In this document: piece by piece, positions 4,610-31,828 of the stretch | Position numbering within the stretch: position 1 is the stretch's first letter | How the letters are laid out: the number at the start of each line of letters is the position of its first letter | Source: Eledone cirrhosa | Taxonomy: Eukaryota | Direction of reading: 5' to 3' | Length of the DNA: 64,000 nucleotides | Assembly: GCA_964016885.1 (NCBI GenBank) | Contig: OZ024740.1 | Span: 46,066,001-46,130,000, forward strand | Notes under the pieces: generated by a model | The model's input: only the letters and a program-made list of their open reading frames with translations | Told to the model about the DNA's origin: nothing | Databases searched by the model: none | Made by a program: the position numbers and the translations under genes

Positions 4610-4691
4610 ACTCCAACTAATTAGTTTCTGTAATGGGATAAAGATAGTTACGTAATATAACCATCGAGAATTCATTACGTCATCTGGGAGT
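4610..4691 (-). ncRNA. Type I hammerhead ribozyme, core variant CAGAUGA
   Basis: ACUCC-CAGAUGA-c-GUAAUG-[37 nt]-CAUUAC-a-GAA-ACUAAUUAGU-U-GGAGU. U4 is changed to A relative to the sister copy. Confidence 0.7.
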
Positions 4692-5154
4692 CTATTCTCA
4701 GCTAAGTCTCCAGGCAATGCGCGGACACTAGGGACTCACATAAAAATAATAATAATCCGGTGGATGGAACAGCTAGCGGGGACTGGATTCCATGCACTGA
4801 AAAAGTTCGCTGCCTCTGGTCAAATGGCAGATTCTAAAGAATCAATCACGTGACATTGAGGCTAGTCGGAAGGAGTGAGTTGGTAAGATGACAGAAGCCT
4901 ACTACCACACCAATGAATTAGTAGCGGATTTGGCAGGTTTGCTCAACAAATAAATAATTTGGAGATAAATATAGAGAAATTAATATATCTACCAACATAT
5001 GCGTACAGATGTACACTAATGCTAGCAAATACATAAGTTATGTCATAGTACCTAGGTGGTTCAATGCAGGAGGATGCAGAACAATTATATGAGAGACGTA
5101 AAATAAGAAAATTTAAAAAAAAAATTAAAAATTAACTTACTTACTAAAATTTTC

Positions 5155-5236
5155 ACTCCAACTAATTAGTTTCTGTAATGGGATAAAGATAGTTGCGTAA
5201 TATAACCATCGAGAATTCATTACGTCATCAGGGAGT
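5155..5236 (-). ncRNA. Type I hammerhead ribozyme, canonical core
   Basis: Stem I ACUCC/GGAGU; CUGAUGA; stem II GUAAUG/CAUUAC with a 37-nt insert; GAA; palindromic stem III ACUAAUUAGU; GUU cleavage triplet. Confidence 0.85.
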
Positions 5237-5272
5237 CTATATATATACTCAGGGAGTATATATATATATATA

Positions 5273-5450
5273 TCATCAACATCATCATCATCACCGTTTT
5301 ACGTCCGTTCTTCCACGCTAGCATGGGTTAGACGGGTTGTCCTGTTGTGGGCAGTGTCTGGTCGGCTGACCATGCCTTGCTCATACAGGAACTGATTTGG
5401 CTTGATTTCTACAGCTGGATGCCCTTCCTAACACCAACCTCATTTACAGT
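5273..5450 (-). mobile_element. SINE 3' fragment with RTE-type tail ending in (GAT)n
   Basis: Minus strand reads ggttggtgttaggaagggcatccagc...ccgtctaacccatgctagcgtggaagaacggacgtaaaacggtgatgatgatg. Confidence 0.55.
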
Positions 5451-5839
5451 GAGTGCTGGGTGCTTTTTCGTGGCGCCTACACGTCCACTTTACAGTGTGG
5501 GCTGGGTGCTATTTTTGCCGTGGCACCTCCACGACCACCTTGCAGTGGGGGGTGTGGGGGCATATTGTCTATATGCTTCAGCTTGTACCCATGGGAGGTC
5601 GGGTACTCTGTATTACTGCGTGACGCCAGAGGTCACGGCCGTGTGTCATATATATATATTTAATACATTAACAGAGAAAGCTTTAAGCAATACTCCGACC
5701 GGCTTCCGTCTCACTCAACAAACATTAGGATATACCTTAGTATAATCCCAATTATACGTTTGGGGTGCTAACTATACGTATTTTGCGGATAACCAGTTGT
5801 ATTATTTTATATGAGACATAATTAAAATACATCTCTCTT

Positions 5840-5961
5840 TCCAAACGATCGTTTCATTATAAGTTTTCTACAAATTGGGAAAATAATGTCCAGGTTATGT
5901 AGAAGCCTACACATAGTCCGTAGGAATATATGTAGGTGGGCACTTATAAATCATCAGTGGA
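5840..5961 (-). ncRNA. Type I hammerhead ribozyme with a 77-nt stem II insert
   Basis: Stem I UCCA/UGGA; CUGAUGA; U.U pair, then stem II UUAUAAGU/ACUUAUAA; GAA; palindromic stem III ACGAUCGU; GUU triplet. Confidence 0.8.
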
Positions 5962-28460: not shown

Positions 28461-29723
28461 ATGAATAGATACATGAACAGAAGAAATAACTTTGGTAGAA
28501 GGTATCGTGGTATCATGGAACCAATGTCTAGAATGACCATGGACTTCCAAGGCAGATACATGGATTCTTATGGAAGAATGGTAGATCCCAGATCATATGG
28601 CTTCTATGGCAGATATTCTGACAACGATAGATACTATGGTAGATCTATGTACAACTATTACGGTTTCTATGATAACGATAGGTACAATAGATATGGTAAT
28701 TTCATGGACTTCCCAGAGAGGTTTATGGATATGTCCGGATATCAAATGGACATGAATGGAAGATGGATGGACATGCAAGGATCTAACTCCAGCCCTTACT
28801 GGCATATGTTCAACTCATCAAGACAAGGCTACTACCCTGGTTACCAATATGGTCGTAACTGGTTCTTCCCCGAGAGATTCATGGACATGTCCCACTACCA
28901 GATGGACATGCAAGGCCGATACATGGACAGATATGGACGTCAATGTAACCCTTATAACAACTACTATAGGCGTCATATGTATTATCCATACATGAATTAC
29001 TACCAAATGTACTATCCTGAGAGATTCATGGATATGTCCAGCTACCAGATGGACATGAATGGTCGTTGGATGGATATGTATGGTCGTTATTCTAGCCCTT
29101 ACTACAGCTACCATGGCAGATTCCACCATAACTACCCTTATTATAACTACAGCTGGGGACAAAGATCTTTCAACTACCCAGAGAGGTATTATGATATGGG
29201 AAGCTACCAGATGGATTTTGATGGTCGTTGGATGGATATGCACCACCGTCACTGCAGTCCCTTCTTCAACTACTATGGCAGGTACCACCATAACTACCCT
29301 TATTACAACTACAGCTGGGGACAAAGATCTTACAACTACCCCGACAGGTATTTTGATATGGAAAACTATCAAATGGATTTTGATGGTCGTTGGATGGATA
29401 TGTCTGGTCGTTATTCCTCTCCCTTCTACAACTACCACAACAGATTCTACAATAACTACCCTCATTATAACTACAGCTGGAGTAGCAGGCATTACAACTA
29501 CCCAGAGAGATATTATGATATGGGAAACAATCAGATGGATTTTGAAGGACGTTGGATGGATTCTTATGGCCAACGTTACCATGGCTATAACTACCACAAC
29601 AGGAACTACTACAACTCCTCTCCAAACTCCCACTACTACTGGGGACAGAGATCTTACGACTACCCAGAAATGGATTTTGATGGTCAATATTTCCATAATT
29701 TCTCTGATAGTTGGTCCTATTAA
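28461..29723 (+). CDS. reflectin: Reflectin (cephalopod iridocyte/leucophore structural protein), 420 aa, uninterrupted CDS
   Basis: N-terminal motif MEPMSRMTMDFQGRYMDSYGRMVDP, six reflectin motifs of the type PERFMDMSGYQMDMNGRWMD and one truncated motif. Rich in Y/M/R/D/N/W; no Ala, Leu or Lys. Confidence 0.99.
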   Translation: MNRYMNRRNNFGRRYRGIMEPMSRMTMDFQGRYMDSYGRMVDPRSYGFYGRYSDNDRYYGRSMYNYYGFYDNDRYNRYGNFMDFPERFMDMSGYQMDMNGRWMDMQGSNSSPYWHMFNSSRQGYYPGYQYGRNWFFPERFMDMSHYQMDMQGRYMDRYGRQCNPYNNYYRRHMYYPYMNYYQMYYPERFMDMSSYQMDMNGRWMDMYGRYSSPYYSYHGRFHHNYPYYNYSWGQRSFNYPERYYDMGSYQMDFDGRWMDMHHRHCSPFFNYYGRYHHNYPYYNYSWGQRSYNYPDRYFDMENYQMDFDGRWMDMSGRYSSPFYNYHNRFYNNYPHYNYSWSSRHYNYPERYYDMGNNQMDFEGRWMDSYGQRYHGYNYHNRNYYNSSPNSHYYWGQRSYDYPEMDFDGQYFHNFSDSWSY

Positions 29724-29867
29724 AAGTAGCGCCACTCGTCAACAATATAATTGCAAATGGCGGTAGTCTCTACCTTCGGGAAGTCATTCTGAGTCGAACA
29801 CTCAACGTAAAGCAGATCATAACTTTAAAAAAATACTCTATAACTTTGAATAATTTTTGCAGATATA

Positions 29868-30125
29868 TAACAACAACAACAACATCATGAACAACGAAGA
29901 ATAACTGAAAAAATTTGATGAACTTTGTAATATTAATAATAATAATAACAACAACAACAACAACAACAATGATAATGATGTCAACAACGACAATAATGTA
30001 ATAACATCAACGACAACAACAAAAACGACAGCAACAACAAAAATAATAATAATGATATTTTTTTTAATAATAATAATAATAATAATAATAATAATAATAA
30101 TAATAATAATAATAATAATAATAAT
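29868..30125. repeat. (AAC)n/(AAT)n microsatellites in the predicted 3'UTR
   Basis: Direct inspection. Confidence 0.9.
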
Positions 30126-30188
30126 GTCGAAACTAAATTTTAAATTTGATAACTATCTACATTATTAAGGATGATAAAAAACACCCAC

Positions 30189-30260
30189 TGTAATGTGAAT
30201 TACATACAAATAAATTTGAGTTATCGAGTGAATATCCTGTCTTATATTTATTTATTGTGT
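30189..30260 (+). terminator. Putative reflectin polyadenylation signal
   Basis: TGTA at 30189, AATAAA at 30209-30214 and a downstream T/GT-rich tract. Confidence 0.6.
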
Positions 30261-31785
30261 TACACTCAACTAACAAGCTATGTTCATTATTCTATTATTA
30301 TTTTATTCATTTACTAATATTCAGTTTTGAACGGCAGCCATGCTGGGTACCGTCTTCGGGCGTTTTAGTCAGTCATACAGATCCAGTATATTTATCGAAT
30401 CATTAAGTCACACTTTTATACAGCACCATGTTCCTCGCTTATATACATAAACACAGGCATACGCACACACGAATATACTCACGTGCACACACGAGCACAT
30501 ATGCGCACACACACACACGAATATACTCACGTGCACACACGGGCACATATGCGCACACAGACACACGCACGCCTCTCCCCACACACACATATATATATAT
30601 ATGTATATATATAATTAGAAAGTGAACAACACAATATATAACCACTCCACTGCCAAAGGTTTCTGGATCCCAGACAATATTTCATCAGACAGATATATAT
30701 ATATATATAAAGAGAGATAACGATAGAGAGAGGGGCAAGAGGGAAAAAAGAGAGAGAGGGGAGAGAGAGAGAGAGAGAGAGAGAGAGAGAGAGAGAGAGA
30801 GAGAGAGAGAGAGAGAGAGAGAGAGAGAGAGAGAAACTAGTATATAAGGAGTACCGCCCTCACTATAGCAGAAACAGAAGCAGGGATCTAACTTGGTTTT
30901 ATCTACCATTTAATATTAATGTCACTACTAGTAAAGCCATGCATTTTCTATGTCTCTAGTATGATAATATTTCCTGCCTTAGCACAAATACAACAAATCT
31001 TTCAATCCCAATAATATTAAAGTCAGCCATTTCTGCATGGAGAACATCACTACCTAGATCACACTACACAACATACATTATACAACCAGAACAACCCCAC
31101 TGAATAACAAGCGCAATGGCAGAAATCCTTTAATCTACCCGCTTAAATTATCTTGCTTTATAAATACCATAGGCCTATGACACCTAATTGAGTTGCAGAA
31201 GCGCTATTATGATATACGATAGATCTTGGACATTTAAACGTGGGGAACTCCTTCCTTCTCCTGATCTGAACACAGCCCATTCCCTTCCAAGGAGAGTGCG
31301 AAAGAGAGCAAGTAAGAAAGAGATACTGAGGAAAATCGAGCCCAGAACTTGGCTGGTAATTTATTTATCGACGCAAAGAGGTTGAAAAACAAAGTTGAAC
31401 TAAGAGTGCGCAAAGTGGGAACGAATAGCATGAATTTTTCTTTCCGACGTTCTAACGACTCTACCAATTCATCACCTTCATAGATGCTCACAACCGATAA
31501 GGTATGATTTTCATGGGTACGTCTCTATTTATAAAACAAACTTTGTATTTTATCTGATGAAAGCGTACCAATGTTGTCTTGGTTGCCCTTGAAATAAATA
31601 TAATAAAATAAATATGGTTTTATAAATATAGTTTCCATTTATTTAATATCATTGAATATTTACTCTAGTAATCTGTTGAGAGCTCTGAGCGCCCGGCCGA
31701 TTAACTCACTCGATATTGCTCAGCCGTTAATATGCATAAGGAAAGTATATACTTTCAGACGTTCAATCATCTGGCAGGAAGGTAT

Positions 31786-31828
31786 ACGTTGCTGACGATA
31801 GCTAATAAGCTTGAAACTAGTACAGCGT
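31786..31828 (+). ncRNA. Compact type I hammerhead ribozyme, canonical core
   Basis: Stem I ACGUUG/CAGCGU; CUGACGA; U.U pair, then AGCU-aaua-AGCU; GAA; palindromic stem III ACUAGU; GUA triplet. Confidence 0.85.

What the first reader, a model, noticed from the sequence alone, without database searches (positions are those of the whole stretch)
4610..31828. Nine hammerhead folds from about six families around a reflectin gene, sharing an unusual architecture
Seen: HHR folds at 4610, 5155, 5840, 6999, 20169, 20584, 22528, 22901 and 31786. Stem sequences differ between families but pairing is kept. Stem III is usually a palindrome (ACUAAUUAGU, ACGAUCGU, ACAAUUGU, ACUAGU), and the 10.1-11.1 position is often non-canonical (C.A, U.U, A.G). 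Known: PLE-associated type I HHRs with short palindromic stem III can cleave as dimers. Inference: this genome carries a very dense and diverse ribozyme complement that standard models may partly miss.
Basis: partly seen in the sequence, partly recalled or inferred. Interest (0 to 1): 0.75.

Follow-up and report, generated by a model that had tools for sequence, protein, structure and literature searches.

The report
Hammerheads of Hydra-clade Penelope retroelements
The nine motifs are hammerhead-ribozyme sequences at the ends of six common families of jumping repeats (two with Penelope-type genes, four likely their non-coding parasites), a known kind with no sign of a link to the reflectin gene, and the one odd point is that some highly successful protein-coding families carry cores predicted to cut poorly or not at all.

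Summary
All nine sites are real type I hammerhead motifs from six dispersed repeat families (about seven insertions). Six pass a strict descriptor, against 0.03 in shuffles. Rfam finds none. Two families are 3' ends of Hydra-clade Penelope-like elements with RT plus GIY-YIG ORFs. Three are non-coding 430-720 nt tandem units (retrozyme-like); one is an unresolved min-HHR family.

The 'unusual' architecture is largely published: Craig 2021 File S2 shows U.U at 10.1-11.1 in 14 of 25 Hydra families, with near-palindromic stem III. Subfamily covariation supports stem II and a dimer-type palindrome, and shows 10.1-11.1 is unconstrained.

Three short genome-wide patterns give about 79,000 motifs above control. 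Flanks of four other reflectin genes are at background, so there is no sign of a reflectin link.

What remains odd: ORF-linked families carry family-wide core changes (U4C; A at position 8, 1,237 matches; U4A, 26,137 matches), while tandem units keep CUGANGA. Cleavage is untested. The scan has noted similar hammerheads elsewhere in this genome.

The parts
4401..5240 (-). Family A: about 1.5 units of a ~545-nt non-coding tandem repeat (retrozyme-like), with hammerheads at 4610-4691 (U4A in this copy) and 5155-5236 (intact core; 5' flank truncated at a TA run)
   Evidence: 1229 first-look candidates in the genome; 0 of 69 held copies have a same-strand PLE ORF nearby
5648..6405 (-). Family D: about one 723-nt non-coding unit, hammerhead 5840-5961 with U.U junction, 94-nt stem II and ACGAUCGU
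   Evidence: (2443 candidates)
6984..9606 (-). Family E: 5'-truncated Hydra-type PLE. RT fragment 8902-9606 and GIY-YIG fragment 8262-8930 lie in different frames, followed by a ~1.15-kb 3' region and a terminal hammerhead-like fold at 6999-7095 with core CUGAGAA (no G8)
   Evidence: (own EN 1.10-1.17 kb upstream in 9 of 52 held copies)
20057..20298 (+). Family B, decayed copy; motif at about 20169-20206 with intact CUGAUGA and GAAA but broken stems
20544..22785 (.). Family C: one insertion of a Hydra-type PLE 3' end, made of an inverted part (20544-~22307, -) and a short tailed part (22310-~22785, +). Hammerheads at 20584-20630 (-) and 22528-22574 (+): core CCGAAGA, A.G junction, ACAAUUGU
   Evidence: 963 candidates, the 30 best 99-100% identical; L241: two hammerheads 4336 nt apart around a 708-aa RT-EN frame
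22784..23573 (-). Family B copy; min-HHR at 22901-22936 (CUGAUGA, bulged A, G-C, 4-bp stem II); stem III is AAGU here and ACGU in 13 of 25 de-duplicated copies
   Evidence: (531 candidates)
28461..29723 (+). Reflectin coding frame; a bystander, one of five reflectin loci at C1 45.75-46.15 Mb
   Evidence: (57% identity to Sepia reflectin 1, E 1e-77)
31689..31950 (+). Family F: partial copy of a 430-nt non-coding tandem unit; hammerhead 31786-31828 with U.U junction and ACUAGU
   Evidence: 636 candidates; four-unit array in L248

Best explanation
The nine motifs are type I hammerhead sequences near the 3' ends of six dispersed repeat families, two of them Hydra-clade Penelope-like retroelements with RT and GIY-YIG frames and four non-coding families likely mobilised by such elements, and intact copies are predicted to cut mainly as dimers through their palindromic stem III. 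Shown: the folds, the family structure, the ORF linkage of C and E, fixed 3' ends abutting (TA)n, tandem units for A, D and F, and covariation. Inferred: tandem transcripts pair two palindromic stems III so that each motif cuts the other, releasing unit-length RNA that may circularise and is copied back into (TA)n by a Hydra RT/EN. Position 10.1-11.1 is a free 1x1 mismatch, not a pair. The local density comes from independent insertions into TA microsatellites plus the duplications that PLE insertion itself makes. Also inferred: cleavage matters more to the short tandem parasites than to the ORF-bearing elements, whose cores have drifted (U4C, A8, U4A).
For: - Chance excluded locally (6 vs 0.03) and genome-wide (44,925 vs 54 control; 12,679 vs 3,689; 29,203 vs 3,883).
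- Hydra motifs read directly from the translations: RWR and DKT in C; CxCX5C linker, CxxC and CxH in C and in other E copies. These fit the definition in PMC8557442 section 11.
- All six families show a preferred distance from the motif to the next (TA)n.
- C lineage, 22 distinct sequences: ten core letters show 0 differences in 210 comparisons against 34 of 84 in loop II. Stem III is paired in 100% of cells, including the central two letters (AU 19, GC 2, GU 1) that cannot pair in a monomer hairpin. The junction is unpaired in 15 of 22.
- A lineage, 7 sequences: one stem II pair occurs as A-U, C-G and U-A, while C.A (once G.A) stays unpaired in 7 of 7.
- D lineage: stem III reads ACGAUCGU, ACAAUUGU, ACGGCCGU.
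- The four short palindromes (6-10 nt) fold as duplexes (-4.8 to -10.0 kcal/mol) but not as hairpins (+1.5 to +6.0).
- Published analogues cleave better as dimers (PMC4209133; PMC7229834 section 15).
Against: - No cleavage or expression data.
- Covariation rests on few independent events among related sequences. For A1, 14 of 500 shuffles reach the percentage paired and 167 of 500 the two-sided cells; for A2 only one pair changes on both sides.
- Pfam found no domain in the C or E frames, so clade assignment is by motifs and by likeness to printed Hydra alignments, without a tree.
- No autonomous partner was identified for A, B, D or F, and no tandem unit for B.
- In the 2026 preprint only 1 of 9 tested retrozyme dimers cleaved.
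- MFE folds of single motifs mostly do not give the hammerhead junction.
- The window is denser than background (4 events against about 0.65 expected, Poisson 0.004). I put this down to a window picked for density, which was not tested.
Confidence: 0.85

Rival explanations
1. Most of these motifs are catalytically dead relics or serve as protein-binding folds for the PLE RT; self-cleavage plays little part in any family.
For: Family-wide core changes in C (41 of 41 copies CCGAAGA), E (0 of 46 intact) and M. PMC11167929 passages: hammerhead mutants do not affect insertion in vitro, no cleavage without protein, and no RNA-seq reads ending at the site. Low in vitro activity of min-HHRs.
Against: Core letters stay fixed across subfamilies while loops diverge (2 of 66 vs 48 of 220 in A; 0 of 210 vs 34 of 84 in C). 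The tandem families keep CUGANGA: A 43 of 44, F 52 of 57; D 26 of 29, G 13 of 13, K 46 of 46 (G and K counts include units of the same arrays).
Confidence: 0.1
2. The cluster has been recruited to regulate the reflectin gene, for example by cutting read-through or 3' extended transcripts.
For: F lies on the reflectin strand about 2 kb past the stop codon with an intact core. The window's first 32.4 kb has 9 six-family hits, against 35/Mb background.
Against: The copies are 98-100% identical to dispersed copies, i.e. recent insertions. Flanks of four other reflectin genes are at background, and the 10 kb on either side of the window hold none. Eight of nine motifs lie 5.5-24 kb upstream, in mixed orientation.
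Confidence: 0.03
3. The folds are chance matches in AT-rich repeat DNA.
For: The motifs are short; 2 of 16 descriptor hits in random samples look spurious, and shuffles of the 600 kb gave 0-3 hits each.
Against: Shuffle and reversed-pattern controls, covariation, and fixed position at element 3' ends.
Confidence: 0.01

Closest known systems
Hydra-clade PLE hammerheads (Craig et al. 2021, PMC8557442; passages, section 11, supplementary File S1 rows and the File S2 table read)
   Same: RT then GIY-YIG, DKT, RW(K/R), CxCX5C, (TA)n targets, hammerhead near the 3' end, U.U junction in 14 of 25 listed families, near-palindromic stem III, cleavage base mostly A or U. An Octopus bimaculoides family is in the list.
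   Different: All 25 listed cores are intact CUGANGA, whereas C, E and M carry U4C, A8 and U4A family-wide. A.G, A.A and C.U junctions are not in that table. C is 4.3 kb with a 1.5-kb 3' region, where Hydra elements are said to be generally under 3 kb.
Minimal hammerheads of metazoan PLEs (Cervera and De la Pena 2014, PMC4209133; parts 1-2 of 4 read)
   Same: Many families per genome, short stem I, palindromic 15.2-16.2 and loop 3, inverted pairs of motifs, dimer model. Family B matches the consensus (bulged nucleotide, G10.1-C11.1, ACGU).
   Different: That paper stresses a conserved G10.1-C11.1. Four of the six families here have a mismatch instead, and three have 50-95 nt stems II.
Animal non-LTR retrozymes (Cervera and de la Pena 2020, PMC7229834, passages and section 15; Li et al. 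bioRxiv 10.64898/2026.07.22.740005, parts 1-3 of 5)
   Same: Non-coding tandem units with one type I hammerhead each. Axolotl HHR_Amex2 has U.U at the base of helix II in about 60,000 copies and cleaves better as a dimer. Unit lengths of 51-972 bp and a PLE origin are reported.
   Different: My searches for hammerhead plus octopus or Hydra clade listed no study of cephalopod retrozymes. A and D have long stems II with a candidate pseudoknot instead of the classic loop 1-loop 2 contact. Circular RNA is not shown here.
Natural core variants (Perreault et al. 2011, PMC3088659; sections 7, 8 and passages read)
   Same: U10.1-U11.1, U4C, palindromic stem III and stem I-II pseudoknots are described.
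   Different: There they are rare variants; here they are the master sequences of families with thousands of copies. C3 facing A8 and U4A do not appear in the text I read (its figure and Figures S6-S7 were not seen).

Membership tests
Type I hammerhead ribozyme | Core CUGANGA ... GAAA ... UH at a three-stem junction, open at stem I | tested here: met
   Exact at 5155, 5840, 22901 and 31786; one-letter variants at 4610, 20584, 22528 and 6999; broken stems at 20169
Type I hammerhead ribozyme | C3-G8 (or compensated) pair | tested here: not met
   Met in A, B, C, D and F; not met in E, where 0 of the first 100 of 1,237 matches have G8. The other reading is a deleted position 7 plus a bulged A.
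Type I hammerhead ribozyme | Stems supported by covariation | tested here: met
   few independent events
Type I hammerhead ribozyme | Site-specific self-cleavage | not testable with these tools
   Needs in vitro transcription
Rfam hammerhead families | Score at gathering threshold or a significant E-value | tested here: not met
Hydra-clade PLE (families C, E) | [quoted passage not shown] | tested here: met
   Motifs in translations; Pfam gave no hit
Hydra-clade PLE (families C, E) | RWK-like and DKT motifs, CxCX5C linker, CxxC and CxH in the endonuclease | tested here: met
   C: RWR, DKT, CNCRSSRTC, CNLC, CQH. E: CNCPDGSMC in L245, CNLC and CKH in the window copy; the N-terminal part of E was not recovered.
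Hydra-clade PLE (families C, E) | pLTR tandem/inverted structure, tail at one end, (TA)n target | tested here: met
Hydra-clade PLE (families C, E) | Placement in the Hydra clade on an RT tree | not tested
   No reference proteins were held as sequences
Non-LTR retrozyme (families A, D, F) | Non-coding tandem units, each with a type I hammerhead | tested here: met
   Spacings of about 545, 723 and 430 nt; no consistent ORF linkage. B: unit not resolved.
Non-LTR retrozyme (families A, D, F) | Expressed as linear and circular monomer RNA | not testable with these tools
   Needs raw RNA reads of this organism

The most novel reading that the evidence does not exclude
In this genome the protein-coding Hydra PLEs have let their hammerheads decay or tuned them down. 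The masters of three ORF-linked families carry U4C, A8 and U4A, and still made hundreds to 26,000 copies. Their non-coding tandem parasites keep perfect cores, some with long pseudoknotted stems II. This would be natural in vivo evidence that cleavage is dispensable for PLE retrotransposition but required for the retrozyme life cycle. Alternatively, these cores work through an undescribed compensation, such as the RT protein or the free 10.1-11.1 mismatch.
Probability: 0.3. Interest if true: 0.62.

Novelty: new member of a known kind. Interest (0 to 1): 0.33.

Why it matters
As given, the finding adds octopod members to a known class and confirms that Rfam misses them: about 79,000 motifs above control in three short patterns, plus 26,137 in one more family. 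What would matter is the by-product. Why PLEs carry hammerheads is described as unclear (PMC8557442 passages), and this genome offers matched natural variants. It has intact, U4C, U4A and A8 cores, at least six junction types in one lineage, and short versus long stems II, all on young high-copy families. That makes the question directly testable with a handful of transcripts.

Tried and rejected
- Rfam at two thresholds gave no hammerhead.
- The first descriptor (stem II up to 90 nt) missed D and was widened.
- Pfam did not recognise the PLE frames or reflectin.
- Search for RNA runs: no RNA holder listed. Contigs of three runs of unrecorded kind cannot show ends or cleavage and were not used.
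- Reflectin link rejected. Clustering next to other hammerhead families is modest: 21 hits in 544 kb against 14 in 600 kb.
- The family A tally (44 of 138) came from a pattern that was too loose; it was dropped and redone.
- Pseudoknot between the strand 5' of stem I and the stem II insert: suggestive for A (7 bp; 84 of 2000 shuffles) and E (8 bp; 58 of 2000), not significant for D (574 of 2000), absent in C and F. Kept only as a lead.
- No intact-core subfamily of E was found in the first 100 matches.
- Papers not held: Luense 2017, Ambros and Flores 1998, Nelson and Uhlenbeck 2008, Scott 2013. What I say of Luense comes from the review PMC6765202 (passages), and it may already show some of these junction variants. 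That U4A removes activity is recalled, not read.
- Searches for G8A data listed nothing. PMC11014351 and PMC6155905 passages added nothing on these variants.
- Supplements of the bioRxiv preprint were not seen.
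Full report
Setting. The window is G000:C1:46066001-46130000 of a 3.0-Gb genome. The frame at 28461-29723 is a reflectin (57% to Sepia reflectin 1, 80% to an Argonauta protein), so the host is a cephalopod, probably an octopod. Five reflectin loci lie at C1 45.75-46.15 Mb. Bases 32465-64000 are a G/T-rich satellite.

Observation. Rfam gives no hammerhead at gathering thresholds or among 62 matches at E<=10. My type I descriptor allowed one core change, a mismatch or bulge at 10.1-11.1 and a stem II of up to 130 nt. 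It finds 6 of the 9 sites, against a mean of 0.03 in 100 shuffles. An earlier version also found 22901 (6 hits against 0.18 in 150 shuffles). The other two were read by hand and by family alignment. A BLAST with the six family motifs returns exactly the nine sites. They are about seven insertions, because 4610/5155 are a 545-nt tandem and 20584/22528 are identical inverted arms.

What the families are. Each has 531-2443 first-look candidates in the genome, with the best copies 95-100% identical. Each shows a preferred distance from the motif to the next (TA)n, sharp in C, D, E and F and looser in A and B. C is the end of a 4336-nt element with two hammerheads around an RT-GIY-YIG frame (L241). 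E is the end of a second element whose broken frames lie at 8262-9606; its own endonuclease sits 1.10-1.17 kb upstream in 9 of 52 held copies. Both show the Hydra-clade motifs defined in PMC8557442 section 11, although Pfam does not recognise them. A, D and F form tandem units of about 545, 723 and 430 nt. Same-strand PLE frames lie near 0 of 69, 5 of 44 and 6 of 91 copies, at scattered distances. They fit non-LTR retrozymes, which a 2026 preprint derives from PLE pLTRs. B is a textbook min-HHR; its unit was not resolved.

Structure. In 22 distinct C-lineage sequences, ten core letters never differ (0 of 210) while loop II differs in 34 of 84 comparisons. Stem II has A-U to G-C changes. Stem III is complementary in every cell, including the two central letters that cannot pair within one hairpin. 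Position 10.1-11.1 is AG 7, UA 6, CU 4, AA 2, CA 2, AU 1. In 7 A-lineage sequences one stem II pair takes three Watson-Crick forms while the junction stays unpaired. The D lineage has ACGAUCGU, ACAAUUGU and ACGGCCGU, the last with G-C at the junction. F copies with C.A and C-G occur beside U.U. The short palindromes are stable as duplexes and unstable as hairpins. These controls are modest because the sequences are related (14 of 500 and 0 of 500 shuffles reach the percentage paired), but they agree with the published dimer model.

Density. Sixty evenly spaced 10-kb samples give 16 descriptor hits (14 at score 10 or more) against 0-3 per shuffle. Genome-wide patterns give 44,925 matches vs 54 control for U.U with a 6-nt stem III. 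They give 12,679 vs 3,689 when neither junction base is U, and 29,203 vs 3,883 for an 8-nt stem III. That is about 79,000 above control, leaving out long-stem and min-HHR families. The axolotl has 126,247 in a far larger genome. The window is about eight-fold denser than background, but flanks of four other reflectin genes are not (5 hits in 115 kb vs 21 in 600 kb), nor are the 10 kb on either side of the window.

Comparison with the known. File S2 of Craig 2021 lists hammerheads for 25 Hydra families. By my count 14 have U.U at 10.1-11.1 and one has U.C, most have a near-palindromic stem III, and a Chara element has C.A. Perreault 2011 reports U10.1-U11.1, U4C, palindromic stems III and pseudoknots. 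The axolotl retrozyme Amex2 has U.U and cleaves better as a dimer. I did not see A.G, A.A or C.U junctions, or 50-95 nt stems II on such motifs, in what I read (searches). Luense 2017 was not available and may hold them.

What remains odd. Among de-duplicated held copies, C has CCGAAGA in 41 of 41 and E has an intact core in 0 of 46; none of the first 100 of 1,237 genome matches for E has G8. A further family outside the window, M, has 26,137 matches vs 0 control, with U4A in 94 of the 100 listed. It has a PLE endonuclease about 1 kb upstream in 3 of 42 held copies and an N-terminus just downstream in one. The tandem families keep CUGANGA: A 43 of 44, F 52 of 57, D 26 of 29, G 13 of 13, K 46 of 46. 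B has 23 of 30. This fits the in vitro result that C3 or G8 mutants abolish cleavage without affecting insertion (PMC11167929 passages). Against a strict rule: 5 of 22 C-lineage sequences have U4, one of them ORF-linked (L331). All 25 published Hydra cores are intact. U4C is known to retain some activity. The contrast rests on three versus five lineages. The effect of U4A is recalled, and that of G8A is inferred from the C3-G8 pair.

Mechanism. Shown: motifs, families, ORF linkage, insertion signature, covariation, counts. Inferred: tandem transcripts cleave as dimers to give unit RNAs that a Hydra RT/EN reinserts at (TA)n, and autonomous elements depend less on cleavage than their parasites. 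Cleavage, expression and circles are untested.

Earlier notes of this scan report similar retrozyme and PLE hammerheads in this genome and in another one, and scrambled-order hammerheads elsewhere in this genome. None lies near this window or matches the C or E sequence.

Verdict. Real, correctly seen, a new set of members of a known kind, with no sign of a link to reflectin. Interest 0.33; the core-decay contrast would deserve about 0.6 if confirmed.

Noticed in passing
G000 genome-wide; e.g. L136 (+) near 2262, L244, L271, L369: Family M: a hammerhead with core CAGAAGA (U4A), U.U junction and a 3-bp stem II, 26,137 matches vs 0 control; appears to be the 3' end of another Hydra-type PLE.
   Followed up: partly
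window 5155-5245 and 4610-4700 (-); also 6999-7110 (-): Candidate pseudoknot between the strand 5' of stem I and the stem II insert: 7 bp in family A, 8 bp in E. The 5155 copy has lost the 5' strand and the 4610 copy has U4A, so both window copies of A may be impaired.
   Followed up: partly
L235, L257, L273-L284 and L286-L314: Long head-to-tail arrays of two more hammerhead units (310 nt with U.U and ACGCGU; about 466-469 nt with G-C and ACUAGU, with a compensatory U-A/A-U change in stem II), some switching orientation mid-array.
   Followed up: partly
window 14429-14655 and 19043-19269: Identical 227-nt inverted arms of a dispersed repeat around a 4.4-kb interval that holds broken LINE-type RT and endonuclease frames; no hammerhead was found in them by the descriptor.
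   Followed up: partly
window 32465-64000: A satellite of more than 31 kb with 46/92-nt period and very strong G and T skew, starting about 2.7 kb past the reflectin stop codon.
   Followed up: no
G000:C1:45.75-46.15 Mb: Five reflectin loci in mixed orientation; two at 45.75-45.77 Mb face each other and are 93-94% identical to the window's N-terminal 160 aa.
   Followed up: partly
window 23714-24555 and 6694-6751: A 26-nt minisatellite of about 32 copies, and a weak tRNA-like match that is probably a SINE head.
   Followed up: no
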